Source of the DNA: an uncultured Candidatus Saccharibacteria bacterium
GTDB taxonomy: Bacteria > Patescibacteriota > Saccharimonadia > Saccharimonadales > UBA7683
DNA: 64,000 nucleotides
Assembly (NCBI GenBank): GCA_964632215.1
Contig: CAZWBG010000003.1
Span: forward strand, 7,833 to 71,832
Direction of reading: 5' to 3'
Part shown: piece by piece, positions 21,302-62,914 of the stretch
How positions within the stretch are numbered: position 1 is the stretch's first letter
Layout: every line of letters starts with the position of its first letter
The notes under the pieces: model-generated
Database searches by the model: none
What the model was told of the DNA's origin: nothing
The model's input: the letters and a program-made list of their open reading frames with translations, nothing else
Position numbers and translations under genes: made by a program

Positions 21302-23455
21302 ATGGATCAAAACCCGCAAGATCAAACACCAGTAACAGATGAGCAAACCAGTCCGGTTTCATCAAATGTGAAGCAACAGATTGCCGAGAGTATCAAGGGC
21401 GGTAAAAACATCCTAGTTACCGTAGATTCTAATCCAACAGTTGATGAGCTTGCCGCAGCACTTGGACTTACATTTTTACTTAGCAAGCTCGATAAGCACG
21501 CCTCGGCGGTCTTCAGTGGTGAGATTCCTCCTGCGATGGAATTCTTGGACCCCGATGCGACATTTGAGAGCTCCGTTGATTCGCTCCGTGATTTCATTAT
21601 TGCGCTGGACCGCGAAAAAGCTGATAAACTGCGTTACAAAGTAGAAGATGAAGTGGTAAAAATCTTTATTACGCCATATAGGACAGTGTTAAAGAAAGAT
21701 GATTTCCAGTTCAGCCAGGGTGACTTCAATGTTGATGTAGTGGTTGCGTTAGGTGTAGAAAAACGAGACAACTTAGACAAAGCAATTATTGCGCACGGTA
21801 GAATTTTGCACGATGCTACAGTTATTACCATCAATATTGGTGATATCAGTAGTGGTTTGGGTGCACTTGATTGGAATGATCCTAATGCGAGCTCAATTTC
21901 GGAAATGCTCATGAGTATAAGCGAATCTTTTGGTAGCGGATTGCTGGATGAGCAGATCAGCACCGCCTTTTTAACGGGTATCGTGGCAGCAACCAACCGT
22001 TTTAGTAATGAAAAAACCAGTCCAAAGGTGATGACGATGGCTGCACAGCTTATGGCAGCTGGTGCTAACCAGCAGCTTATTGCAACGAATTTACGGCGTG
22101 AGGGAATGATTAGCGAGCAGGTTCGTCAAGACAATCATGCTCACAAAGACGATGGCGAGATGCTTGTAGAACACGAGCAAGAGAAACCCAAGCAAGACAC
22201 CCCTCAAAATAAACCACAACCGAGTCAAAATAGTGGACCTGCCAGAAAAGATAATAATACTAGCAACAAAAAGCCTCCAAAGAATGACGGTGGACAGAAG
22301 CAGGGCCAGAATCAGAATGCAAGTCAGAACCGAAACCAGAGTCAGAGTCAGCCACCTCAGAAACCCCAGAGTAATATTTCTCGAGTTCATCTGCAGAGCG
22401 CAGAACCGTCTCAGAGTGCAGACAGTGCGGGCGAGTTGAAGAAGACCCTCGACTTAGCTAACCAAAAAGTTGAAGCTGTGCCGCCACAGGCACCACAAGC
22501 TCCTTTATCGGTTGATGCACCACTTCATTCAATTACAGATGTTAAGTCAGAGGATGGGCCCGTGACTCGTGTAATTTCGGCACCAGCCCCACAGTTAGCT
22601 CCAACCAAAGCAGACGACCGCCCAACTTTTGGAGGGACACTCAATGCAACAACGGCCCAAGCAGCACAAAATGAAGTTGCACAAACCTTCCAAGAGGGTA
22701 CAACCAACAACGCAACGTTAGAGCACATGACGAGCGAATCTTCTAATGACGAAGCTGTAGCCGCAGCACGAAGAGCCGTAGAAGACGCTACCTCCCTTGA
22801 GCCATTTAATCCTGCGGGTCAGCCTCGAGAAGACATAGCCGCACAATCCTTGCCGTTACCAAGCTTAGGTGCGGTACCAGCTCCTCAGCCAAATGAGATT
22901 GAGTCTGTTGTGGCTGTGCCAGAGGTTTCACAGGTGCCCGAGCTGCCACCTTTGCCTCAGAGCGGTGGGTTCTCAACCGAGGCTGTGCCGATGCCACAAG
23001 CGGTGAATCAGCCAGAGCCATTCCCAGCTCCAGCTACACCACAAGTAGAATCACCAGGTGTTGTGGAGCCGATACCACTTGCAGCTCCTTCGGCAATGGA
23101 TGCTTCACCAGTCGGTGGCATACCGCCTTTGCCCCCAATGCCACCAATGCCTGTATCAACCGGTGATTTACCGCCTTTACCACCAATGCCAGGTCAGACA
23201 AATGATCCCGCGGCTAGCTTTCAACCTCAAGTGAGCCCAGACTTTATGCAAAACCAACCTCGAAGCCAGAACTACTTGACCGAACAAGGAGAAGCGATTG
23301 CAGCACAACAAGCTGAAAAAACTGCTACCCGCCAGGCTAAGATTGATGAAAGAACTGAACAGTACGACGCAGCCGTAGAGAAGAACCAAGAGCTCAAGGC
23401 TCAGGCAGCCGATCCGAACGATCATGCAACCTTCCCATTACCTCCGCAGTACTAG
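21302..23455 (+). CDS. Degenerate DHH/NrnA-like domain protein with long Gln/Pro-rich disordered region
   Basis: The N-terminal ~260 aa aligns by eye to the DHH-DHHA1 layout, but the catalytic motifs are replaced ('VTVDSNPTVDE' for H.nPDGD, 'GIVAATNRF' for G..tDTg.F). Low-complexity Q/N/P-rich sequence follows, including 'PPLPPMPPMP...PPLPPMP', and the protein ends in a coiled-coil tail. Confidence 0.5.
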   Translation: MDQNPQDQTPVTDEQTSPVSSNVKQQIAESIKGGKNILVTVDSNPTVDELAAALGLTFLLSKLDKHASAVFSGEIPPAMEFLDPDATFESSVDSLRDFIIALDREKADKLRYKVEDEVVKIFITPYRTVLKKDDFQFSQGDFNVDVVVALGVEKRDNLDKAIIAHGRILHDATVITINIGDISSGLGALDWNDPNASSISEMLMSISESFGSGLLDEQISTAFLTGIVAATNRFSNEKTSPKVMTMAAQLMAAGANQQLIATNLRREGMISEQVRQDNHAHKDDGEMLVEHEQEKPKQDTPQNKPQPSQNSGPARKDNNTSNKKPPKNDGGQKQGQNQNASQNRNQSQSQPPQKPQSNISRVHLQSAEPSQSADSAGELKKTLDLANQKVEAVPPQAPQAPLSVDAPLHSITDVKSEDGPVTRVISAPAPQLAPTKADDRPTFGGTLNATTAQAAQNEVAQTFQEGTTNNATLEHMTSESSNDEAVAAARRAVEDATSLEPFNPAGQPREDIAAQSLPLPSLGAVPAPQPNEIESVVAVPEVSQVPELPPLPQSGGFSTEAVPMPQAVNQPEPFPAPATPQVESPGVVEPIPLAAPSAMDASPVGGIPPLPPMPPMPVSTGDLPPLPPMPGQTNDPAASFQPQVSPDFMQNQPRSQNYLTEQGEAIAAQQAEKTATRQAKIDERTEQYDAAVEKNQELKAQAADPNDHATFPLPPQY

Positions 23456-24162
23456 TCTTTAAAGTAGTGGAAATGGTCTTGCATGTGCTCAGTTGTCCCG
23501 ATGCTCTCTTGCAAGGCAAGAACTTGCTTCATATCTTCTCGTTGAGAGTGGTGGGCACGCATAATTTCGAGTTTATGACTAATAACGTCACGATTGTCGA
23601 CAATCTCATCTATTTCTGCAGCTACTTTACCTGCAGGCATGTAGAGCCAGTTGATATTGGCTTGGGGTACCGAGACCTTCGGCAGGCAGAAATACTTTAG
23701 TACTCCCAGCGTAATATTGGGCTTGGCTTGTTCGCGCAGTGTCAAATAGACGAAGGTGGTGATACAGCTGACTGCAATATGGTCAAGGTGACCCGATATG
23801 CCTCCGCTGTCGAACGTCATAAAATCAACCGTAATAGGCTCGTGGTAGTGTCCGAGCGTTATTTCAATATATGTGAGTATTTTCTGGGCAATTTCAAGGT
23901 ATAGGTCATTATCAAGTCCACCGTCGGGGTAGTGCAGGGCGTGGCCGGATTTCACACCGATGAGCTTACCGCTATTTGCCCATTCTTTGAGTCGCACCTC
24001 TCCGAGATTCGTCACATTGTCGGGGTTGCGACCTGCCTCGCCGTCGGTCACAAGTATTAAGTGCACATCTGCACCAGCCTGAGTGGCTTTATAAAGAGTA
24101 GCGGAGGGGCCAAAGCCTTCGTCATCTGGGTGAGCAAAAATACCAAACAATACTTTCTTCAT
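23452..24162 (-). CDS. PIG-L/LmbE-family N-acetylglucosaminyl deacetylase
   Basis: Signature 'FAHPDDEGFG', plus downstream 'HLDH' and 'AHHSQ' metal and substrate motifs. Confidence 0.8.
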   Translation of the reverse strand: MKKVLFGIFAHPDDEGFGPSATLYKATQAGADVHLILVTDGEAGRNPDNVTNLGEVRLKEWANSGKLIGVKSGHALHYPDGGLDNDLYLEIAQKILTYIEITLGHYHEPITVDFMTFDSGGISGHLDHIAVSCITTFVYLTLREQAKPNITLGVLKYFCLPKVSVPQANINWLYMPAGKVAAEIDEIVDNRDVISHKLEIMRAHHSQREDMKQVLALQESIGTTEHMQDHFHYFKD

Positions 24163-24168
24163 AGCTCT

Positions 24169-24176
24169 AGTATACT
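24169..24176. promoter_or_regulatory. Palindromic shared -10 element (AGTATACT) for divergent PIG-L and truB genes
   Basis: The plus strand reads TATACT + 8 nt + ATG(24185). The minus strand reads TATACT + 6 nt + ATG(24162). Only 22 nt separate the two start codons. Confidence 0.55.
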
Positions 24177-24184
24177 AAATATCA

Positions 24185-24865
24185 ATGAAAGATATTATTC
24201 TGATTGATAAACCTGCCGGTTGGACTAGTTTTGATGTGGTAGCTAAGATCCGCGGGAAGATTCGAGCCCAGTATACCGAGCGTGGGGAGAAGCCCACGAA
24301 GAAACAGTTGCGCGTGGGACATGCTGGTACGCTGGATCCTTTTGCAACAGGCCTGTTGATCATTCTACTCGGCGAAGGTTGCAAGAAAGCTGGTGAATTC
24401 TTGAAACTCGACAAAACCTATGAATTTACCGCCAAACTAGGAGAGATGAGTACTACTGGTGACACTGAAGGAGGAATTGAGGTAGTATCTGACACCAAAC
24501 CAGATGAAAAAGCCGTCCTGGGGGCTCTAGACCAGTTCAGGGGGCAAATTACACAGGTACCTCCGGCATTCTCGGCTGTTAAGATTGGCGGTAAACGGGC
24601 ATACAAGCTTGCTCGAGAGGGTAAAACGTTTGAAATACCTTCTCGTCAGGTACAGATAGCCCGCCTTGAGCTTGCTTCGTACGAATATCCGTACCTTAAA
24701 TGCGTCTGCGATGTAAGCAGTGGAACCTACATCCGCACCTTGGTGGAAGATATTGGCAAAACTCTCAAAACTGGCGCCTACTGCACAGAACTCCGCCGCA
24801 CCAGAATAGGTGACTACCAGATTAAATATGCAAAGAATATAGAGGATATTATAAAAAGCACTTGA
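24185..24865 (+). CDS. truB: tRNA pseudouridine(55) synthase
   Basis: Catalytic motif 'VGHAGTLDPFATGLLIILLG', plus 'QVPPAFSAVKIGGKRAY'. Confidence 0.92.
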   Translation: MKDIILIDKPAGWTSFDVVAKIRGKIRAQYTERGEKPTKKQLRVGHAGTLDPFATGLLIILLGEGCKKAGEFLKLDKTYEFTAKLGEMSTTGDTEGGIEVVSDTKPDEKAVLGALDQFRGQITQVPPAFSAVKIGGKRAYKLAREGKTFEIPSRQVQIARLELASYEYPYLKCVCDVSSGTYIRTLVEDIGKTLKTGAYCTELRRTRIGDYQIKYAKNIEDIIKST

Positions 24866-26239
24866 TTAGTGGCGGGAGATACGGCGGCGGTGTATCAGGT
24901 AGAGACCAGAGCCAATAATTGTTATGAAGGAGGCCGCTGTAAGCGGTAGCAGGTTGGTGCCAGTATTGGCCAAGCTACTACTGGCACTGGCTAGATTCAC
25001 GGTTACGGTGCTAGTAGTACACAGCTGGGAGTTTGCAGTTGAGCAGATTGAATAGGTAAATGAATCCTGAATAGCACTTTGAGCTGAAGCAGGCTTGAAA
25101 AGTAAGCTATCGAATGACGCGAGTAAATTAAAACCAAGATTAGCCTGCTTATTTGGGGTATAGGTTATTTCACCGGTGGTTTGGTTGACCACTACAGTAC
25201 CTTTTTGCGGCTGGGTAGTGATGGTAACACTTGTGGGATCGACACTTTCATAGGTATCAGTATGGTTACTTGGAGCGTTGTAGGTTACGGAGCCTTTAGT
25301 CGCATCTAGAGTAATGGAAGAATCTATAATACTTGGAGCTATCGTGAGAGGTTGCCAGTCTTGGGACATCAGAGAGGAGATTTGCTGAGTATTAGTCAGT
25401 TGTTCCAACTCTGTACCGTCGATATTAATTGTATGGATTTGGCTTAAGCCTGTAACGTTTGATCTAAAAACGGCTTTCGCTCCATCTGGAGAAAAAGCTG
25501 GTCCAGATGTGTTGGATGCGGCTGTCCCAGGAATCGGAGATTGGTTAGCACCATTAGTATCCATAAGATACAGCTCATATGTACCGCTACGATTAGAGAC
25601 AAACAGTATCCTTAATCCGTTTGGAGAGAAGCTTGCATTTTGATCATTTCCAGTGCTAAATGTGAGTCTTTGAAGTTCGGTTCCATTGATATTGATACTG
25701 AAGAGTTCTACACCAAATCCTGATACTGTTTGGTGATAAACAATCGTTGTCCCGTCAGGTGAAAACACAGGGTAATTGCAGCTCGCACCTGAACCATTAG
25801 TGACTTGCTCTATATTAGTTCCATCAGAGTTCATCACAAAAACTTCTTGTATTGCCCCGCCCGCCCTGTTGCTTTTAAACACAATTCGAGAACCGTCCGG
25901 ATGCCAGCTTGGGTGCGCTTCGGTATAAGCGTTGTTACTTATATTAATCGCATTACTGCCATCTGCATTCATAATGTATATTTGATTATTGAGCCGATAA
26001 GCGATCTTCGTACCGTCCGGAGAGTATCTTGCCTCTTGTATCGCTTCAGAAGATACCAACTTGATATCCTCTCCGTTACTCCTCATTGTATAAATACCGT
26101 TGGGGTTTGCAGCGAGGTCTTGATACATAATTCTCCCGTTTAAACCTTGGAACGAGGCATAAGTTTGAGATGGAATAAGAGCCACCAGCAAAGCCAGAAC
26201 AGATGTGGTGGCTGCTAACTTTTTGAACGTTTGTTTCAT
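24866..26239 (-). CDS. Secreted PD40/TolB-like beta-propeller surface protein with LAxTG cell-wall sorting signal
   Basis: Signal peptide 'LAATTSVLALLVALIPSQTYA'. Repeated 'SPDG/HPDG...I.F.SNR' blades (at least 6). The C-terminus reads 'LANTG' followed by a hydrophobic stretch and 'HRRRISRH'. Its stop abuts the truB stop with a 0-nt gap. Confidence 0.8.
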   Translation of the reverse strand: MKQTFKKLAATTSVLALLVALIPSQTYASFQGLNGRIMYQDLAANPNGIYTMRSNGEDIKLVSSEAIQEARYSPDGTKIAYRLNNQIYIMNADGSNAINISNNAYTEAHPSWHPDGSRIVFKSNRAGGAIQEVFVMNSDGTNIEQVTNGSGASCNYPVFSPDGTTIVYHQTVSGFGVELFSININGTELQRLTFSTGNDQNASFSPNGLRILFVSNRSGTYELYLMDTNGANQSPIPGTAASNTSGPAFSPDGAKAVFRSNVTGLSQIHTINIDGTELEQLTNTQQISSLMSQDWQPLTIAPSIIDSSITLDATKGSVTYNAPSNHTDTYESVDPTSVTITTQPQKGTVVVNQTTGEITYTPNKQANLGFNLLASFDSLLFKPASAQSAIQDSFTYSICSTANSQLCTTSTVTVNLASASSSLANTGTNLLPLTAASFITIIGSGLYLIHRRRISRH

Positions 26240-26342
26240 TTATAACCTTACAGATTGATAGATCTATTTTAACATGGTTATGCTCGTATACAAGTAAGTC
26301 ATAACGACCGATTAGCTCCAGCTATGCAAGGTGGGGTGTTGG

Positions 26343-26468
26343 TACGCTCGTGGAGCTGTCTTTGTTGAAGAAAGCAAAAGAGGTGCTTATTGCACCGAGT
26401 TTCATCGTACTAGAATAGGCGACTACCAGATTGATAATGCACAGAACATAGTCGATATTACACGATAG
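26343..26468 (+). pseudogene. Relic of a truB 3' end (copy 2)
   Basis: 26388-26468 translates to 'YCTEFHRTRIGDYQIDNAQNIVDITR*', against truB 'YCTELRRTRIGDYQIKYAKNIEDIIKST*'. The alignment is gapless, with 18/26 aa and about 55/75 nt identical by hand. Weaker similarity continues upstream ('KRGAYCTE' vs 'KTGAYCTE'). Confidence 0.8.
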
Positions 26469-26494
26469 TTCCTAGTTCCTAGTAAATTAGGAAC
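26469..26494. promoter_or_regulatory. Candidate operator: three TTCCTA(G) half-sites (two direct, one inverted)
   Basis: The sequence ttcctag-ttcctag-taaat-taggaa lies immediately upstream of the -10 box of the wHTH-PRTase gene. Confidence 0.35.
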
Positions 26495-26499
26495 CTTTA

Positions 26500-26508
26500 T
26501 GATATACT
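26500..26508 (+). promoter_or_regulatory. Extended -10 box (TGaTATACT) 6 nt upstream of GTG 26515; leaderless candidate
   Basis: Sequence reads TGA-TATACT-cactac-GTG. An in-frame stop at 26500-26502 leaves GTG 26515 as the only available start. Confidence 0.45.
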
Positions 26509-26514
26509 CACTAC

Positions 26515-27492
26515 GTGAAAACATCAGAAAAAATTATCCGATATATTAAAAAACACCAACAGGTTACAGGTGTTGAATTGGCAGATTATCTTGATATTGG
26601 TGATCGAGCGGTACGTAAACAGCTGAAAACATTGCTTGATGGGGGAAAAATTCACAAGATTGGTAAGCCACCCAGGGTATACTATTATTTCAATACACAA
26701 GAAGTGTCAGAAGAACCTGTTGCTATACAACTTGATCCAGACACTCGGGATCTTATTGAAGAGAATTTCTATCATGTTACTCCAGTAGGGAACATACTTG
26801 AAGGGGTGGCAGGGTTTGTGGCTTGGTGTACCGCCAGGAATACCGATCCAGCTCATATGGCGGCCCAGTATTGGCAGGTGTATGAAAAATATGATAAGTA
26901 TCGTATCGATGGACTGGTTGACGGTACCAAAAAGCTACAGACTACCTTTGACAAGACGATGCTTGACGAACTTTTTTACATTGATTTTTATAGTGTGGAG
27001 ATATTTGGTAAAACTAAACTAGGTCAAATGCTTCTTTTCGCAAAGCAGAGTCAAGACAGATCACTGATTAACCAGGTTGCAGACATTGTTGCACCTCGAG
27101 TACGAAAAGTGATAAAAGACTATAAAATTGAGGCAGTTGGCTTTATACCACCAACCGTGAAGCGTGAACTGCAATTTATGAAACAGATTGAGAAGAGACT
27201 GCAGCTAGAATTGCCGGTAATTCCAATTTTAAAGATCAAGACCCCGGTAGTTGTCCCACAAAAAACACTTTCAAAACTTCAAGACAGGGTGATGAATGCT
27301 CAGAATACTATCAAAGTGGGTGGTCATACACCATATAAAAATATATTGCTGATAGACGACGCAGTTGGATCAGGAGCTACTTTGCAAGAAACTGCTCGTA
27401 AATTGCGCCAGAAAGGACTTGCAGAAGGCAGCATCATAGGACTTGCAATTACTGGCAGTATCAAGGGATTCGATGTAATTAGTGAGGTATAG
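26515..27492 (+). CDS. wHTH domain fused to ComF/GntX-like phosphoribosyltransferase
   Basis: N-terminal wHTH 'VTGVELADYLDIGDRAVRKQLKTLLDGGKIHKIG'. C-terminal PRTase PRPP loop 'ILLIDDAVGSGATLQETARKL', preceded by a ComF-like 'VGFIPPT...' segment. The Cys4 zinc finger typical of ComFC is absent. Confidence 0.65.
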   Translation: MKTSEKIIRYIKKHQQVTGVELADYLDIGDRAVRKQLKTLLDGGKIHKIGKPPRVYYYFNTQEVSEEPVAIQLDPDTRDLIEENFYHVTPVGNILEGVAGFVAWCTARNTDPAHMAAQYWQVYEKYDKYRIDGLVDGTKKLQTTFDKTMLDELFYIDFYSVEIFGKTKLGQMLLFAKQSQDRSLINQVADIVAPRVRKVIKDYKIEAVGFIPPTVKRELQFMKQIEKRLQLELPVIPILKIKTPVVVPQKTLSKLQDRVMNAQNTIKVGGHTPYKNILLIDDAVGSGATLQETARKLRQKGLAEGSIIGLAITGSIKGFDVISEV

Positions 27493-27626
27493 CCTCCGCC
27501 GCACTAGAGTAGATGAGTACTTAATTGCGAGTACCTGGACCATTGACGAGATACCTAAATAAACATATAGTTTACTCAGCTTTCGGGGGATCCTGAAGGT
27601 GTACCTATCAATCAAGGAGGTCCACC

Positions 27627-28334
27627 ATGGCGGTGGAGCAGTATATGCGAGAAGGTTCACTGCTCGTCAGTGACGAACGCCTCACGGAGCGTAAAGCTCG
27701 CCAGCAGCTGCTGAGTGAGACGGGGTTCGAACAGGTGCTCTCCTACGAGGAGACCCAGGTCCATCGGCTTGAGATGGCCAAGCTGGTCTTCACTGAGTTG
27801 ACGGGGAAAGAGCTGACCATGTGGCGTCGGTTTCTGCCGACTACGGTCTCCACTGAACAATATCGTTTCGATCAGCCGCCAACCGAAGTACTCGAGGTCA
27901 TCAAGGCGGCTCAAGCGATGCAGTGTTTTGATCGGATCGAAATCTGGACACCAGAAGGTAACAACGTACGTGGGGCCATTGCTCGTGTGATCAAACGAGG
28001 GGTCAACCGTGTTACCAACTTTCTGGCTGAGATCGATCCGATGGCGGTTGGAGTAATCAATGGCGCCGACAACGCTCCGTGCTACTACCCGATTGTGCGT
28101 TGGGGCGAGAGTCTCTTGCCCGTCAAGCGAATAAAGGCCCATGTTAGACATACCCGCTTAGGTGTGCGTACCGTCGCCACACTGTTGGCCATGGTCATCC
28201 TGGCTGCGCTCGGTGGAGCAGTTTTCGGCATCGCTGCGATGGCCGCCGCTTTCGGCTGGTGGCTACTCCTCTGTGCGGCTGTGGTGGTTATTGTTGTCGC
28301 GTGGTTGGGGCGCGGCGTTTACCTCTTGTGGTGA
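27627..28334 (+). CDS. Hypothetical protein with C-terminal double TM anchor, encoded in a GC-rich (foreign) patch
   Basis: Strong SD AAGGAGG lies 7 nt upstream. A soluble ~170-aa N-domain is followed by 'VATLLAMVILAALGGAVFGIAAMAAAFGWWLLLCAAVVVIVVAWLG'. Hand GC counts are 36/60 and 40/60 nt inside the gene versus 18/60 in the neighbouring gene. Confidence 0.7.
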   Translation: MAVEQYMREGSLLVSDERLTERKARQQLLSETGFEQVLSYEETQVHRLEMAKLVFTELTGKELTMWRRFLPTTVSTEQYRFDQPPTEVLEVIKAAQAMQCFDRIEIWTPEGNNVRGAIARVIKRGVNRVTNFLAEIDPMAVGVINGADNAPCYYPIVRWGESLLPVKRIKAHVRHTRLGVRTVATLLAMVILAALGGAVFGIAAMAAAFGWWLLLCAAVVVIVVAWLGRGVYLLW

Positions 28335-28504
28335 CCTAGTTCAGCCGACTTTCCTTAACGGACTACATAGCCTCATCCTGATGTATCAGGATGGTCCGTG
28401 CCCTGCTGCACATATATTTGTGCGCGGGGTGTAGGCGTCCTACTTGCGTAGCAACTGATGAGACCTAGGAAGTTTAGGTCGAATAGGACAAAAGATGAGT
28501 ACGT

Positions 28505-28650
28505 GTGAGCTCTACCCACACGATTTACTTTGAGAACTTCTCGGCAGTGGTGTTCTCTTGGGATTGGTACTTTATTGTACCGACCCCTGCCACACTAAAA
28601 CAGGCAACTACAGTATTGAAAATGCCCTGAATATTGACAATATAGCCTAG
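28505..28650 (+). pseudogene. Relic of a truB 3' end (copy 3, more decayed)
   Basis: 28573-28650 translates to 'YCTDPCHTKTGNYSIENALNIDNIA*' and aligns without gaps to both other copies (YCT[ED]...T[RK].G[DN]Y.I..A.NI..I). A possible frameshifted 'VSS...' segment begins at 28505. Confidence 0.65.
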
Positions 28651-28663
28651 AGTATGCTATAAT
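28634..28663 (+). promoter_or_regulatory. Consensus sigma-70 promoter (TTGACA-18-TATAAT)
   Basis: The -35 TTGACA (28634-28639) lies inside the last codons of truB relic 3. The -10 TATAAT is at 28658-28663. The promoter drives the 28706 gene. Confidence 0.6.
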
Positions 28664-28705
28664 AAAATAATAGATATGGTTCAATATGATTGAAAACGAT
28701 AGCTG

Positions 28706-30085
28706 ATGAAGAACTATGAAACAAACACCAAGTTAAAGAATCCAGGTATTCCTAAAAGCCGCGAGATCTTTGTAGGCGATATTAACGACGCTGTCATCAA
28801 AGTACAGCAGGTTACTGGCTTTGAGGTTACACCTGAATGGTGGATGAGTGAAGTTGGTAATGAGGGTGCGACCGAAGACATACTCGACCGCTTCGACAGA
28901 GCATTTGAGCAGTTTATTCACCTACAAATGAGTACAGCTGAATCTAGCGAGGTTGAGAATGCGACGATTTCCGAAGCTGATAAGCAGTTAGACGAGTTTG
29001 ATCAGGCAATGCCAAAAACAGAAGCAGATGTTCAGCTTCGAGAGGAGTTCCTTGAGGAGCTCGCAGAACATCTGAAGGAGAAATATTGCTCAGAGAAGCC
29101 AGAAGTAGTAGGTACCGACCCCAGAGACCAGATACTTCTATCAGGATCCGTAGAGTACTTAGCGGCGGAGCAGGCACGTAAAGAGCTTGAAGACCCGGTA
29201 ACGCGAATCGTGGAGCTTCACTACTCGAGCGAAGGTCGAGAGATTACGCTTCTTGGCACGAACCACACTTTTGACCCTGATGACCCAGGGATCGCTTATT
29301 TAGACAGTTTTGTGAGAGAAAAGGCGAGTAACCCGCGAACGGTATTTATTCTCGAGGGTCAGTACAGTAAAACCGAAGCGCCAATGACCAATCCAGTTGA
29401 TGCGGTGATAACTGGCGGCGAATTTAACTACACGGCTTCTTTGGCTAATCAACTTGGTGTTGAATATATTCCAGCTGAACCTGATCCCAGGACTAATGCT
29501 GAACAGATCTTAGTGGAAAACCCAGAGATTACTCGTGAAGAAGTAGCTTTGCACTACACGGTGAAAACATTGTCAGCATTATTCAAAGATCAGGATGAAC
29601 AGCCTCTAGCTGATATTTCTCCGTATGTTTATTGCAGCGCAGGTATTGGCGGTACCACAGAAGACGGAGGAGTAGTTGAAAAAAGTTTCAGTAGGACCGA
29701 CATTCTAGAAATTAGCGATGATCTGCGGGGTAAGATTAATCTTGCTATGCCACAGCTTATCGAACAGCTCAACGAAGTATTTATTAAAGTTGTACCTGGG
29801 GAGACCTTACTGGAATTAATAGATGATGACGTCGTGAAACTAGTGTATAACCTTAATAGTCAACCGGTGCTTTGGGATCCTGCACCCGAACTCTCAAATC
29901 GTGAACCAACTGTCATAACGAAAATATCACAACTAGATATGCTTATGAGAGACCGTCACACGTTTAGTCTTATGCAGCAAGCACTGGATGAGGGTAAGGA
30001 GCCCGTAGTGGCTGTTGGAAGCTCGCATGTGAGTACACTAGGTCCAGCCATGGATGCAGCATACAAAAAATCAGAAGAGCAGTAG
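28706..30085 (+). CDS. TraB/GumN-like (erythromycin-esterase superfamily) protein with acidic N-terminal region
   Basis: 'ITLLGTNHTFDP...VFILEG' and C-terminal 'MRDRHTFSLMQQAL...PVVAVGSSHVSTLG' resemble the TraB/PrgY/GumN motifs (GTaH...E, RD..m, vGagH). The assignment is by eye only. Confidence 0.4.
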   Translation: MKNYETNTKLKNPGIPKSREIFVGDINDAVIKVQQVTGFEVTPEWWMSEVGNEGATEDILDRFDRAFEQFIHLQMSTAESSEVENATISEADKQLDEFDQAMPKTEADVQLREEFLEELAEHLKEKYCSEKPEVVGTDPRDQILLSGSVEYLAAEQARKELEDPVTRIVELHYSSEGREITLLGTNHTFDPDDPGIAYLDSFVREKASNPRTVFILEGQYSKTEAPMTNPVDAVITGGEFNYTASLANQLGVEYIPAEPDPRTNAEQILVENPEITREEVALHYTVKTLSALFKDQDEQPLADISPYVYCSAGIGGTTEDGGVVEKSFSRTDILEISDDLRGKINLAMPQLIEQLNEVFIKVVPGETLLELIDDDVVKLVYNLNSQPVLWDPAPELSNREPTVITKISQLDMLMRDRHTFSLMQQALDEGKEPVVAVGSSHVSTLGPAMDAAYKKSEEQ

Positions 30086-30217
30086 CTTATGACTTTTAGT
30101 CTACATCTGGTAGACTACGGGTATGGATATTTATGCAATTGGTAAGATTCAGGCAGGTACCTCAAGTTGATTAACTGAGTCAGAGACATTAATCAACGGA
30201 TAACAAGGTAGGATTTT

Positions 30218-31891
30218 ATGATTGCACGAATTTTAATTGCTAATAAGAGTTTTGGTGACAAACAACTTTATAAAGATTTAGACATCTCAGTTCAGCGTGG
30301 GGAGAAGATCGGCCTGATTGGTCGTAATGGTACGGGTAAATCTACTCTACTAAATATTATCAGTGGACTAGATAAAGATTACGACGGCGATATCACTTTG
30401 CAAAAAAGTGCTGTTTTGATCTCGAGTCGTCAGGAGCATCATGGCTATGAGAAACTTTCAGTCTTAGAGTACATCCTGGGTGATTTACCAGAGTACGCTC
30501 AGCTCAAGCACGTGATAGAAACCTATCCGGAGCACATGGGAGAGAACGAGCAGAAATTGCAGGCTTACAGCGATGCACTGGAGCGGTTTGGTAGTTTGGG
30601 TTATTTTGAGATTGAAAGTGATGTTGAGCGAGCGCTGTCAGATTATCAGTTAGTGCTTGATATCAACCATACAACTCTCGGTAGCTTGAGCGGTGGCCAA
30701 AAGCGGATGGTGGAGCTCGTAAAGGTACAGCGGGCTCGGGCCGATGTAGCGTTGATTGATGAGCCGACTAACCACATGGACTATGTAGCCAAGCAGTCGT
30801 TTGTGAGCTGGCTGAAGAATACCGACGAAGCAGTGCTGGTGATTACTCACGACCGCGATGTTTTGGGCGTGGTGGACAGAATTGTCGAGATTCGCGATGG
30901 CAAGGCCTACAGCTTCAAGGGTAACTATAACGACTACTTGCGATCTAATACTCAAAATATCACCTCACAAGTAAATGAATTTGAGACTGCCCAGCGGCGG
31001 ATTGTAAATCTTAAGAGTAACGTCGTAAGGTTTAAGCGAATGAAAGAACGCTCGCGTGATCCGGGTACGATCCACCGTTTTAAATCACTCGAGCAGCGGG
31101 CAGCGGCTGAGTTGGCTGAGCTCTCAGGTGGCGAGAAGCCAACTTTCTGGATTGATCGTGAATCTGCCGAAGATCTTGGGACGAAGATGAGTGAGGCTTA
31201 TTCTGAGCATAAAGCTCGTAATATTCGAGTGCGCACCAAGCATAAAACTGATGCGAGCGAGAAGCAGCTGATTAAGGTTGATGGTATCAGTTTGGGCTAC
31301 GGTAAGGAGCCACTTTTTGCACCTGTAAATTTTGAGCTACGATCTGGCAGTAAATTGCAGCTGAAAGGTCGTAATGGTGCTGGTAAGACCACGCTAGTGC
31401 AGGCAATTCTAAGTACGGTACACGGTGGCAAGCCAGAATCGACTGTATTTAGCGGACATATTGAGCACGAGCCACGCTTGAGAATTGGTGTTTACGAACA
31501 AGAAATTGACCCACAGTATTTGGAGATGACACTGAATGAAGCGATCGAACACATTTATAATGTAAAAGATTTATCCATTACCGATGAGAAGATTAAGCAG
31601 CTACTGAGTGACTACCTTTTTAACCCACACACCGATGCAATCATGCAGCTGCAGCGGTTGAGTGGTGGTCAGAAGGCTCGCTTCCAACTGATTGCGATGC
31701 TAGCGGGTGACCCAGAGGTACTTATTTTGGATGAGCCAACCAACCACCTTGATCTACCGAGTATTGAAGAGCTGGAGGATGCTTTGAGTCAGTACCACGG
31801 GGCAATTTTGTATATCTCACACGATAGCTTCTTTACCAAAAACCTTGGCGGCGAAGTTGTGGAGGTGGCAGCTGAGACAAAAACGACTTGA
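30218..31891 (+). CDS. ABC-F family ATPase (two ABC domains, no TM domain)
   Basis: Walker A motifs 'GRNGTGKSTLL' and 'GRNGAGKTTLV'. Signature motifs 'LSGGQKRMVEL' and 'LSGGQKARFQL'. Walker B motifs 'ALIDEPTNHMD' and 'LILDEPTNHLD'. A charged interdomain linker joins the two ABC domains. Confidence 0.9.
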   Translation: MIARILIANKSFGDKQLYKDLDISVQRGEKIGLIGRNGTGKSTLLNIISGLDKDYDGDITLQKSAVLISSRQEHHGYEKLSVLEYILGDLPEYAQLKHVIETYPEHMGENEQKLQAYSDALERFGSLGYFEIESDVERALSDYQLVLDINHTTLGSLSGGQKRMVELVKVQRARADVALIDEPTNHMDYVAKQSFVSWLKNTDEAVLVITHDRDVLGVVDRIVEIRDGKAYSFKGNYNDYLRSNTQNITSQVNEFETAQRRIVNLKSNVVRFKRMKERSRDPGTIHRFKSLEQRAAAELAELSGGEKPTFWIDRESAEDLGTKMSEAYSEHKARNIRVRTKHKTDASEKQLIKVDGISLGYGKEPLFAPVNFELRSGSKLQLKGRNGAGKTTLVQAILSTVHGGKPESTVFSGHIEHEPRLRIGVYEQEIDPQYLEMTLNEAIEHIYNVKDLSITDEKIKQLLSDYLFNPHTDAIMQLQRLSGGQKARFQLIAMLAGDPEVLILDEPTNHLDLPSIEELEDALSQYHGAILYISHDSFFTKNLGGEVVEVAAETKTT

Positions 31892-61987: not shown

Positions 61988-62914
61988 CTAACTAGGTTTA
62001 ATGTCTTTATGGAACTTCCGGTGAACTTCTTTTAGGTGTGGATCTGTAACGTGTGTATAGATCTGTGTTGTTGATATATCGCTGTGTCCAAGCATTGTCT
62101 GTACGCTGCGTATATCAGCGCCGTTCATGAGTAGGTCGGTTGCAAAACTATGTCGCATAGTGTGAGGTGTTACTTTTTTAATAATGCCAGCTAATTTTGC
62201 GTACCGTTGAACAATACGCTGGATACTACGGGGTGTTAATCGCAAGAAATCGCCACTCGTATCTTGCTCTTTTGTACCGCCGTAGCGAATAAATAGGGCG
62301 GGCGAGTTGTCTTGACGCTTGGTAATGTAAGCGTCTATCCAGTAGGCTGAAACCTCACTCATAAATATCGGCCGATCTTTCTGCCCTTTACCTCTAACCA
62401 CAAATTCTCGGCGTTTCGTACTAACGTGTGTACGATCTAAGCCGACAAGTTCTGAGACTCGCAGTCCGCCGCTAAAAAGAAGTTCAAGTAGGGTCCGATC
62501 ACGTAGTCCAATACTAGTAGAGGTATCTGGTTGAGCAAACAGTGCCTCTAGTTCGTCACGGTTTAAAAATGTCACTTGCTTACGTTTCGTACGCGCCAAT
62601 TCAACCTTGCTTGGCGAAAGGGAGTCAATTTCTCGTTTGGAACAAAACTTTAGAAAACTTCTTAGTGCAATAAGATGATAATTTTGTGTTGTAGTTGATA
62701 TGTCTTGGTCCGTATCTCGGTTTAATCTGTTAAGCCAGAGTCGCCATTTACGAACTGTCTCAGTAGTCATTTTTTCTACTTCAATATCTCCTGAAAACTC
62801 TACCAAACGCATAAGGTAGTGGTGATAATTTTCAATAGTCTTCTGTGAACGGTTTTGTTCAATCTCAAGGTATTCGAGAAACTCAATAATTGTGTCAGAA
62901 AGGTAGTGAGTCAT
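61988..62914 (-). CDS. Tyrosine recombinase XerC/XerD family
   Basis: N-terminal SAM-like core-binding domain. Catalytic 'GLRVSELVGL', 'TPHTMRHSFATDLLMNGADIRSVQTMLGHSDISTTQIYTHV' (R..H-R-Y set). Confidence 0.85.
   Translation of the reverse strand: MTHYLSDTIIEFLEYLEIEQNRSQKTIENYHHYLMRLVEFSGDIEVEKMTTETVRKWRLWLNRLNRDTDQDISTTTQNYHLIALRSFLKFCSKREIDSLSPSKVELARTKRKQVTFLNRDELEALFAQPDTSTSIGLRDRTLLELLFSGGLRVSELVGLDRTHVSTKRREFVVRGKGQKDRPIFMSEVSAYWIDAYITKRQDNSPALFIRYGGTKEQDTSGDFLRLTPRSIQRIVQRYAKLAGIIKKVTPHTMRHSFATDLLMNGADIRSVQTMLGHSDISTTQIYTHVTDPHLKEVHRKFHKDIKPS

What the first reader, a model, noticed from the sequence alone, without database searches (positions are those of the whole stretch)
27600..28500. 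Sharply GC-rich patch encoding a soluble-domain + double-TM protein: recent horizontal acquisition
Hand counts give 36/60 G+C (27661-27720) and 40/60 (28201-28260). The adjacent gene gives 18/60 (26521-26580). The patch begins near a perfect AAGGAGG SD (27613-27619), whereas many native genes here lack an SD. It ends at truB relic 3. The protein (235 aa) has no motif I recognise and ends in two Ala/Gly/Val-rich TM helices. Small membrane-disrupting effectors and actinobacterial membrane proteins both have this architecture. If the organism is a Saccharibacteria-like epibiont of high-GC Actinobacteria, transfer from the host is a plausible source. That is inference only.
Basis: partly seen in the sequence, partly recalled or inferred. 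Interest (0 to 1): 0.6.

Follow-up and report, generated by a model that had tools for sequence, protein, structure and literature searches.

The report
GC-rich single-gene cassette beside truB
The GC-rich patch is real: it is one horizontally acquired gene sitting in a variable slot after the truB gene of a Saccharibacteria genome, but it belongs to an uncharacterised protein family found only in ultra-small (CPR) bacteria, not in Actinobacteria, and its arrival cannot be called recent.

Summary
ORF 27627-28334 (235 aa) is the strongest compositional outlier among 58 ORFs: GC 0.571 against 0.451, and GC3 0.648 against 0.404 (z about 5.4). It also has the highest codon bias in the window. Three independent assemblies are identical across both borders, so a misjoin is unlikely.

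The gene is a one-gene cassette (about 27566-28548). It lies between two decayed copies of the truB 3' end. These sit in a truB|ABC-F slot that carries different genes in three relatives with otherwise conserved gene order. Horizontal acquisition is therefore supported.

An actinobacterial source is not supported. All named homologues are Saccharibacteria or other CPR. Phages and plasmids gave no match, and the flanking truB relics are Saccharibacteria-type. "Recent" is also not supported: the nearest homologue is 45% identical and the downstream relic is heavily decayed.

The protein has a confidently modelled cytoplasmic domain of about 165 aa with no Pfam, PHROG, NCBIfam, PADLOC or PDB match. 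It ends in a two-helix membrane anchor, which other family members replace with a zinc ribbon or lack altogether. Its function is unknown.

One result is unexplained. In 12 of 12 close-clade loci, the homologue has the highest GC3 in its neighbourhood.

The parts
24185..24865 (+). truB (tRNA pseudouridine-55 synthase), the left anchor of the variable slot. Its last ~100 nt are the template of the relics.
   Evidence: Pfam TruB_N E 3.6e-46 and TruB_C_2. Homologues are 73-80% identical and some are named Ca. Saccharibacteria.
26376..26465 (+). truB relic 1 (TruB aa 195-224, 70% aa identity, 76% nt identity). It separates the PD40 cassette from the HTH-PRTase cassette.
27494..27565 (+). truB relic 2 (TruB aa 203-226, with a stop codon near the end of the homology): LRRTRVDEYLIASTWTIDEIPK*. 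This is the left border of the GC-rich cassette. GC is 0.44.
   Evidence: tblastn, nucleotide alignment, GC, and resemblance to Saccharibacterial TruB tails.
27543..27571 (+). Promoter-like site TTGACG-17-TATAGT (10 of 12), overlapping the end of relic 2 and about 55 nt upstream of the start codon.
   Evidence: This is a consensus match only.
27614..27620 (+). Shine-Dalgarno AAGGAGG, 6 nt before the ATG. A GGAGG(T)-type SD is present in 6 of the 11 family loci aligned, the window included.
27627..28334 (+). CDS of the 235-aa protein. GC is 0.571 and GC3 is 0.648.
27627..28121 (+). Conserved N-terminal domain (aa 1-165), predicted cytoplasmic. Invariant or near-invariant residues are W66, D82, F101, W107, T108, E110, D137, G142, R158, W159, G160 and E161.
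   Evidence: Alignments A1, A2 and A5. AlphaFold model pLDDT 87.9, pTM 0.80. No Foldseek match in the PDB.
28155..28331 (+). C-terminal hairpin of two Ala/Gly/Val-rich membrane helices (aa 177-235), preceded by a strongly basic stretch (KRIKAHVRHTRLGVR).
   Evidence: Hydropathy and model helix 166-234.
28358..28443 (+). Three stacked GC-rich hairpins in the 3' UTR. They may act as a terminator or mRNA stabiliser, but no T-run follows.
   Evidence: RNA fold -46.1 kcal/mol, z = -3.08. GC 0.54 over 28335-28440.
28549..28644 (+). truB relic 3 (TruB aa ~192-222): ...YCTDPCHTKTGNYSIENALNIDNIA*. This is the right border of the cassette and the most decayed copy.
30218..31891 (+). ABC-F ATPase, the conserved right-hand border of the variable slot (75-81% identical in relatives).

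Best explanation
The patch is a single-gene accessory cassette of about 1 kb (about 27566-28548). It carries its own promoter-like site, a strong ribosome-binding site, a CDS and a structured 3' end.

Location (shown). It sits in a hypervariable slot between truB and a conserved ABC-F gene in a Saccharibacteria genome. The slot holds four unrelated accessory genes, three of which are followed by a decayed duplicate of the truB 3' end.

Most likely history (inferred). Each cassette arrived on DNA from another Saccharibacterium in which it lay directly downstream of truB. It integrated by recombination anchored in truB homology on the left and an illegitimate join on the right. This displaced the previous truB tail, which then decayed. 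Saccharibacteria are naturally competent, which would supply such DNA.

Under this model the 235-aa cassette is the oldest of the three relic-bounded insertions. Relic 2 would then be the truB tail that came in with it.

The protein (shown). It belongs to a large family without any annotation, at least 769 clusters at 50% identity, seen only in CPR bacteria. The family is defined by a ~165-aa N-terminal domain with an acidic/aromatic set of invariant residues. The C-terminal tail is variable: a membrane hairpin here, a zinc ribbon or nothing elsewhere.

Function (low-confidence inference). It may be a cytoplasmic enzyme or sensor domain held at the inner face of the membrane, acting as a stand-alone accessory (conflict or defence-type) gene rather than a housekeeping one.
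For: Composition: outlier status.

Cassette borders: relics on both sides by tblastn and nucleotide alignment. Similarity stops at the truB stop codon in every copy.

Variable slot: three relatives keep fpg-LssY_C-holA-rpsT-714aa-(PIG-L; not called in L042)-truB-[variable]-ABC-F-...-rpsO-pnp. In the slot they carry 338 aa + NUDIX, or 543 aa, or CM_2/PDH/aminotransferase/NUDIX. None of the window's four cassette proteins has a homologue there.

Autonomy: the gene is a singleton at a different position in nearly every genome. Examples are dprA|topA, rnhB|rplS, der|CAP, and between uvrB (plus a 144-aa ORF) and uvrA. There is no recurrent neighbour. It carries its own SD and a promoter-like site.

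Donor type: named homologues are CPR only. Many hits come from 0.1-um groundwater fractions. Relic tails match Saccharibacterial TruB tails.

Relative age: the invariant LRRTRIG motif reads FHRTRIG, LRRTRVD and PCHTKTG in relics 1 to 3.

Competence: Saccharibacteria are naturally transformable (PMC10633639, found).

Protein: alignments; family size; tail variants; models.

No integrase, transposase or flanking inverted repeats occur in or beside the cassettes.
Against: No donor sequence is known, and the nearest homologue is 45% identical, so neither the transfer event nor its direction is shown directly.

The three relatives examined have no truB relics. The relic-leaving mechanism therefore rests on one genome.

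A site-specific recombinase acting in trans cannot be excluded.

The family-wide GC3 excess (12 of 12 loci) means high GC in this gene is partly a property of the family. By itself it is weaker evidence of a foreign origin than it looks.

The functional proposal rests only on architecture, conserved acidic residues and genomic behaviour. No homology or fold match supports it.
Confidence: 0.62

Rival explanations
1. The high GC is not a trace of the donor. Instead a gene-specific force keeps synonymous sites GC-rich wherever this family resides. Candidates are GC-biased gene conversion at a gene that recombines often, or selection on synonymous sites. The gene could then be an old resident of the lineage.
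For: In 12 of 12 close-clade loci the homologue has the highest GC3 of its neighbourhood, up to 0.98 against 0.57. N-domain GC1 and GC2 stay near 0.6 and 0.4 whatever GC3 is. L006 and L009 carry the gene at the same site (dprA|gene|topA). The family protein (49%) has diverged about as much as DprA (50%), which suggests long residence. Yet GC3 is 0.62 and 0.92 against hosts at 0.47 and 0.50. Upstream non-coding DNA is AT-rich.
Against: In this window the gene is absent from the same slot in three relatives and is bracketed by relics, so acquisition is still needed here. In five loci from distant CPR clades the gene ranks at or near the bottom for GC3, which fits imported composition better than a universal upward force. 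Ribosomal protein genes are not GC3-rich, so this is not ordinary expression-linked bias. The two ideas are not mutually exclusive.
Confidence: 0.25
2. The cassettes are small integrase-less mobile elements, inserted at a specific site in the truB tail by a recombinase encoded elsewhere. This would resemble satellites or integron cassettes, and the relics would be att sites.
For: Tandem direct repeats of the 3' end of a target gene are the classic footprint of site-specific integration into tRNA, tmRNA and some protein genes (established knowledge). All relics share the stretch from the LRRTR codons to the stop codon. A Xer-like tyrosine recombinase ORF lies at 61988-62914; this rests on a motif seen output and was not tested further.
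Against: No recombinase lies in or next to the slot. The left ends of the relics differ (aa 195, 203 and about 192-199). No conserved core or inverted repeat is visible at cassette ends. Homologues elsewhere sit at unrelated sites with no repeats of flanking genes.
Confidence: 0.15
3. The gene was transferred directly from a high-GC actinobacterial host of the epibiont.
For: Cultivated Saccharibacteria live on Actinobacteria (PMC10633639). GC3 values of 0.9 or more in some homologues are in the range typical of high-GC Actinobacteria.
Against: No actinobacterial homologue appeared in a word-indexed search of 5.8 billion clusters. A pattern scan of 185,579 species genomes gave 9 loci, none actinobacterial, although only one peptide pattern was used. 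Phage and plasmid collections gave no match. Sampled clusters are small and metagenome-derived, which is unlike a family from heavily sequenced Actinobacteria. The truB relics bracketing the cassette are Saccharibacteria-type and about 39-44% GC.
Confidence: 0.04
4. The patch is an assembly chimera joining DNA from a GC-richer organism into a Saccharibacteria contig.
For: The GC step is sharp at the CDS borders. The source is a metagenome.
Against: Contigs assembled independently from three sequencing runs are identical to the window across both borders. The borders are truB relics homologous to the adjacent truB. Homologues in other Saccharibacteria show the same local GC jump.
Confidence: 0.02
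5. It is a holin-like or toxin-like small membrane-disrupting effector, perhaps of phage origin.
For: The tail is a two-helix hairpin rich in small residues. The gene is solitary and patchily distributed. The neighbouring cassette resembles part of a defence toxin, PsyrT.
Against: There are no PHROG, PADLOC or BFVD matches and no relatives in IMG/VR or GenBank phages. The conserved module is the 165-aa soluble domain, and the membrane tail is dispensable in much of the family. No lysin or antitoxin partner recurs.
Confidence: 0.07

Closest known systems
Genomic islands integrated in tandem at the 3' end of a tRNA, tmRNA or protein-coding gene
   Same: A conserved target gene is kept intact. 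Each insert is followed by a displaced, decaying copy of the gene's 3' end. Several unrelated inserts sit in series, composition is heterogeneous, and the inserts are absent from relatives.
   Different: Each insert here is a single gene of 1-1.5 kb. There is no integrase, excisionase or fixed crossover core, and the relic left ends differ.
Homology-facilitated illegitimate recombination after natural transformation (described in Acinetobacter and Streptococcus pneumoniae; cited from my own knowledge)
   Same: One homologous anchor (truB) plus an illegitimate join would insert foreign DNA next to the anchor. It can also duplicate part of the anchor. The host phylum is naturally competent (PMC10633639).
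   Different: This is inferred from the footprint only. No donor sequence is available, so microhomology at the right-hand joints could not be examined. Natural serial arrays of this kind are not something I know to be described.
Core-gene-flanked hotspots for accessory and defence genes in bacterial genomes
   Same: The cargo varies between two conserved core genes (truB and ABC-F) across related genomes. One cargo gene resembles the PRTase half of the PsyrT defence toxin.
   Different: The genome is a reduced CPR genome. The cargo is one gene at a time, and the target-gene relics between cargo genes are not a usual feature of such hotspots.
C-terminally membrane-anchored (tail-anchored) cytoplasmic proteins
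   Same: A soluble N-terminal domain with no signal peptide is followed by a basic juxtamembrane stretch and then a C-terminal hydrophobic anchor.
   Different: The anchor is a hairpin of two helices, not one. No sequence or fold relationship to any characterised protein was found.

Membership tests
Site-specific integrative island at a gene's 3' end | Direct repeats of the target gene's 3' end flank the insert | tested here: met
   Relic 2 (27494-27565) and relic 3 (28549-28644) flank the cassette, and both are homologous to the truB tail.
Site-specific integrative island at a gene's 3' end | The element encodes an integrase or recombinase | tested here: not met
   The cassette has one ORF with no Pfam hit. 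None of the eight proteins scanned across 21302-31891 (the slot and its flanks) is a recombinase.
Site-specific integrative island at a gene's 3' end | A fixed crossover core is shared by all att copies | tested here: inconclusive
   All copies share the LRRTR-to-stop stretch, but their left ends differ and identity is only 56% per column.
Integron gene cassette | An attC imperfect inverted repeat at the cassette end, with an IntI integrase and attI nearby | tested here: not met
   No inverted repeats lie at cassette ends. No integrase domain was found among the eight proteins scanned across 21302-31891.
Horizontally acquired accessory gene (general) | Compositional outlier, absent from the same site in relatives, patchy distribution | tested here: met
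   composition; absence in relatives; different sites elsewhere.
Actinobacterial membrane protein family | Homologues present in Actinobacteria | tested here: not met
   Named homologues are CPR only. There is no match in phages or plasmids.
Phage holin / small membrane-disrupting effector | A small protein dominated by membrane helices, with phage context or a partner lysin | tested here: not met
   A 165-aa conserved soluble domain dominates the protein. There are no PHROG hits, no viral contigs and no partner gene.
Known anti-phage defence systems (PADLOC-DB 2.0) | Match to a defence protein model | tested here: not met
   0 families at E <= 0.1.
Any Pfam / NCBIfam family or solved fold | Sequence or structure similarity above threshold | tested here: not met
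Homology-facilitated illegitimate recombination product | Homologous anchor on one side and a microhomology join on the other, seen by comparison with donor and recipient | not testable with these tools
   No donor or pre-insertion sequence is available. Only the footprint (anchor duplication) is seen.

The most novel reading that the evidence does not exclude
The most novel reading combines two claims.

First, this CPR-restricted family of solitary genes may be kept far more GC-rich at synonymous sites than every genome it lives in. GC3 reaches 0.98 against 0.5-0.66, even where the gene has stayed at one site between deeply diverged genomes. That would imply a gene-specific GC-raising process, for example biased gene conversion at a selfish, recombination-prone gene. 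It runs against the usual rule that mobile and foreign genes are AT-richer than their hosts.

Second, in this genome the gene is one unit of an integrase-free array in which single genes are stacked behind truB. Each insertion leaves a truB-tail relic. This would be a natural record of serial transformation-driven gene capture in an epibiotic ultra-small bacterium.
Probability: 0.2. Interest if true: 0.75.

Novelty: new variant of a known kind. Interest (0 to 1): 0.45.

Why it matters
How reduced, host-dependent CPR bacteria gain genes is poorly understood. This locus preserves a readable stack of single-gene acquisitions at one site, with relics that order the events. It arose without any recombinase gene nearby, in a phylum recently shown to be naturally transformable.

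The locus also brings to light a large protein family seen only in CPR (at least 769 clusters). The family has a confidently predicted domain with no match to known folds, and it behaves as a solitary mobile gene. Its persistent GC3 excess over its hosts is unusual and bears on how composition is used to call horizontal transfer.

For the finding as written, the practical result is a correction. Transfer is supported, but it did not come from the actinobacterial host and is not demonstrably recent.

Tried and rejected
- Pfam, PHROGs, NCBIfam and PADLOC scans of the protein, plus Pfam and PHROGs scans of 60 family members. No consistent hit, apart from Zn_ribbon_NUD on the Cys-rich tails of three members.
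- PDB sequence-profile search: nothing.
- Foldseek of the full-length model against the PDB and BFVD, and of the higher-confidence N-domain model against the PDB: nothing better than E 0.17.
- IMG/VR scan and tblastn against phages and plasmids: no relatives.
- tRNA and Rfam scans of the window: empty.
- Looked for relics of flanking genes around homologues in seven other loci. Only short matches at chance level were found.
- Looked for truB relics in three relatives: none.
- Looked for a conserved 5' UTR element across 11 loci. Only the SD is shared.
- Looked for a recurrent partner gene around 21 family loci: none.
- Tested whether the membrane tail's Ala/Gly/Val content explains the GC. Rejected, because the excess is at third positions and is equally strong in the N-domain.
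- Tested expression-linked codon bias. Rejected, because rpsO and rpsT have GC3 of 0.31 and 0.39.
- Cluster look-ups to obtain taxon names for representatives gave almost none.
- A literature search for GC-rich transfers into Saccharibacteria found nothing specific.

Full report

Yes. ORF 27627-28334 (+) encodes 235 aa.

- Among 58 long ORFs it has the highest GC: 0.571 against 0.451 (sd 0.022), z = 5.5.
- It also has the highest GC3: 0.648 against 0.404, z = 5.35. GC2 is ordinary.
- The most GC-rich 708-bp window in the whole 64 kb is 27611-28318.
- Codon bias against the rest of the window ranks first of 58. The tetranucleotide profile of 27601-28600 ranks third of 316 windows.
- The elevated stretch covers the CDS and about 106 nt of 3' UTR, which folds into stacked hairpins.
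Most ORFs here lack an SD-like motif.
- The two C-terminal hydrophobic helices are there.
- Contigs assembled independently from three sequencing runs are identical to the window over 13.7-20.7 kb across both borders. A misjoin is therefore very unlikely, although reads could not be inspected.

**2. What surrounds it?**

The organism is a Saccharibacterium. TruB homologues of 73-80% identity include proteins named Candidatus Saccharibacteria or Saccharimonadales.

The last ~100 nt of truB (24185-24865) recur three times downstream, always on the same strand and always between genes:
- relic 1 at 26376-26465 (70% aa identity);
- relic 2 at 27494-27565;
- relic 3 at 28549/28573-28644.

Each copy runs to a stop codon at or near the end of the homology, and similarity ends there.

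The order of features is: truB | PD40 beta-propeller surface protein (minus strand) | relic 1 | HTH-PRTase | relic 2 | the 235-aa gene | relic 3 | 459-aa protein | ABC-F | rpsO | pnp.

Three relatives with TruB 77-79% identical keep the flanking gene order on both sides, with ABC-F 75-81% identical. Between truB and ABC-F, however, they carry quite different genes. None carries a homologue of the window's four cassette proteins.

The GC-rich patch is therefore one cassette (about 27566-28548) in a hypervariable slot. No integrase, transposase or inverted repeat is associated with it.

**3. Where did it come from?**

The protein has 25 homologues at 29-46% identity in a word-indexed search. An exhaustive profile search finds 769 cluster representatives at E <= 1e-3.

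- Every homologue that carries an organism name is from Saccharibacteria or another CPR lineage. The exceptions are three MAGs labelled Binatia, Planctomycetota and 'bacterium'.
- Many hits come from 0.1-um groundwater fractions.
- Sampled clusters are small and metagenome-derived, mostly singletons.
- No relatives exist in IMG/VR, GenBank phages or PLSDB plasmids.
- The relics on either side of the cassette look like Saccharibacterial TruB tails and have GC of 0.39-0.44.

If insertions happen next to the functional truB, which is an inference, relic 2 is the tail that arrived with this cassette. The immediate donor was then another Saccharibacterium of ordinary GC. An actinobacterial source is not supported.

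**4. Is it recent?**

This is not shown.

- The nearest homologue is 45% identical.
- TruB's LRRTRIG motif is invariant in the four relatives' tails compared here. It reads FHRTRIG in relic 1, LRRTRVD in relic 2 and PCHTKTG in relic 3.
- Under the insertion model, relic 3 was displaced when the 235-aa cassette came in. It is the most decayed copy.
- The cassette would therefore be the oldest of the three relic-bounded insertions.

A GC3 of 0.65 could be a partly ameliorated remnant of a higher starting value. That is speculation.

**5. How did it get in?**

Two routes fit the footprint.

The route I favour is recombination of transforming DNA, anchored by truB homology on one side and joined illegitimately on the other. 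This duplicates the truB tail. In its favour:
- no recombinase is nearby;
- the relic left ends differ (aa 195, 203 and about 192-199);
- the phylum is naturally competent (PMC10633639).

The alternative is site-specific insertion by a recombinase acting in trans. No donor sequence exists to examine the joints, and the relatives show no relics. The mechanism therefore rests on this one locus.

**6. What is the protein?**

Alignments define a conserved N-terminal domain of about 165 aa. Invariant or near-invariant residues are W66, D82, F101, W107, T108, E110, D137, G142, R158, W159, G160 and E161.

The domain starts at residue 2 with a conserved strand, so there is no signal peptide. A basic stretch precedes the first membrane helix. 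The domain is thus predicted to be cytoplasmic, tethered by a C-terminal hairpin.

Across the family the tail is interchangeable. It can be one or two membrane helices, a Cys-rich zinc-ribbon-like tail, or nothing.

AlphaFold gives pLDDT 80 for the whole protein and pLDDT 87.9 with pTM 0.80 for the domain alone. Foldseek finds nothing in the PDB or BFVD. No Pfam, PHROG, NCBIfam, PADLOC or PDB sequence match exists.

The gene is a singleton with its own SD, at a different site in almost every genome, with no recurrent partner.

My best guess, at low confidence, is a stand-alone accessory protein. Its conserved acidic residues may form a metal-dependent active or binding site, held at the membrane in this clade. 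The holin or effector idea has no support.

**7. An unexplained pattern.**

In all 12 loci of the close clade, the homologue has the highest GC3 of its neighbourhood. The excess is often enormous (0.92 against 0.50; 0.98 against 0.57), while N-domain GC1 and GC2 stay constant.

- Ribosomal protein genes are not GC3-rich.
- Two deeply diverged genomes carry the gene at the same site (dprA|gene|topA). The family protein has diverged about as much as DprA, yet GC3 is still 0.62 and 0.92 against hosts near 0.5.
- In five loci of distant CPR clades, the gene instead sits at or near the bottom of the GC3 ranking.

Three explanations could not be separated here: repeated import from an unsampled GC-rich reservoir, allelic replacement through conserved flanks, or a gene-specific GC-raising force. 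This pattern weakens GC alone as proof of a foreign origin for this gene. The slot comparison and the relics carry that conclusion instead.

**8. Verdict.**

The gene was horizontally acquired, but not from Actinobacteria, and its arrival is not demonstrably recent.
- The closest known analogues are tandem islands at the 3' ends of genes and core-gene-flanked hotspots. This locus differs in having single-gene units without an integrase.
- I rate it a new variant of a known kind. Interest is moderate. It is raised by the relic array, the unannotated CPR-only family with no fold match, and the GC3 anomaly.

Noticed in passing
window 24866-30217: The truB|ABC-F slot holds four unrelated accessory genes separated by three decayed copies of the truB tail. 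Three relatives with conserved flanking gene order carry other genes in the slot and have no relics.
   Followed up: yes
window 26515-27492 (+): A 325-aa protein with an N-terminal HTH and a C-terminal phosphoribosyltransferase domain. It aligns to the C-terminal half of the PADLOC PsyrT defence-toxin model (E 1.4e-19) and weakly to ShosT and retron PRTase models. Its GC (0.404) is on the low side of the window.
   Followed up: partly
window 24866-26239 (-): A 457-aa PD40/WD40-like beta-propeller protein with bacterial Ig-like repeats. It ends in LANTG, then a hydrophobic stretch and RRRISRH, which is a sortase-type sorting signal. Its stop codon abuts the truB stop codon.
   Followed up: no
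window 28634-28663 (+): A perfect sigma-70 consensus promoter (TTGACA-18-TATAAT with an upstream TG) faces the 459-aa gene. Its -35 hexamer lies inside truB relic 3, so a relic has been recruited as promoter DNA.
   Followed up: no
12 family loci: window, L004, L006, L007, L009, L011, L012, L013, L019, L036, L037, L038: The family gene always has the highest GC3 among its neighbours, up to 0.98 against 0.57. In five distant CPR loci it is among the lowest. The cause is unresolved.
   Followed up: partly
L006:9002-13321 and L009:587-4867: Two deeply diverged Saccharibacteria carry the family gene at the same site between dprA and topA (DprA 50%, TopA 66%, family protein 49% identical). This suggests long residence or a shared hotspot.
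   Followed up: partly
family proteins P0021, P0022, P0025, P0051 to P0160: About half of the more distant family members replace the membrane tail with a Cys-rich HCG...CxxCG tail, which hits Zn_ribbon_NUD in three members. Others have no tail at all.
   Followed up: partly
window 27657-28151 (-): A 164-aa antisense ORF lies inside the gene. Antisense ORFs spanning the whole gene also occur in L013 and L019. They are probably a by-product of high GC3 rather than a real gene.
   Followed up: no
window 21302-23455 (+), especially 22201-23400: A 717-aa protein with no Pfam hit is conserved in relatives (47% identity). It contains the second most deviant stretch of the window (GC 0.54, AT skew up to 0.35, top tetranucleotide distance).
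   Followed up: no
L011:7044-7565, L011:34-423, L004:4629-6327, L004:9194-9796: Further ORFs with GC3 of 0.82-0.94 lie next to the family gene in genomes of about 0.53-0.55 GC. None has a Pfam hit.
   Followed up: partly
TruB homologues P0183-P0301: TruB length varies from 218 to 300 aa among close relatives, and the tail after LRRTRIG is highly variable. This would fit frequent recombination at the 3' end of the gene.
   Followed up: no
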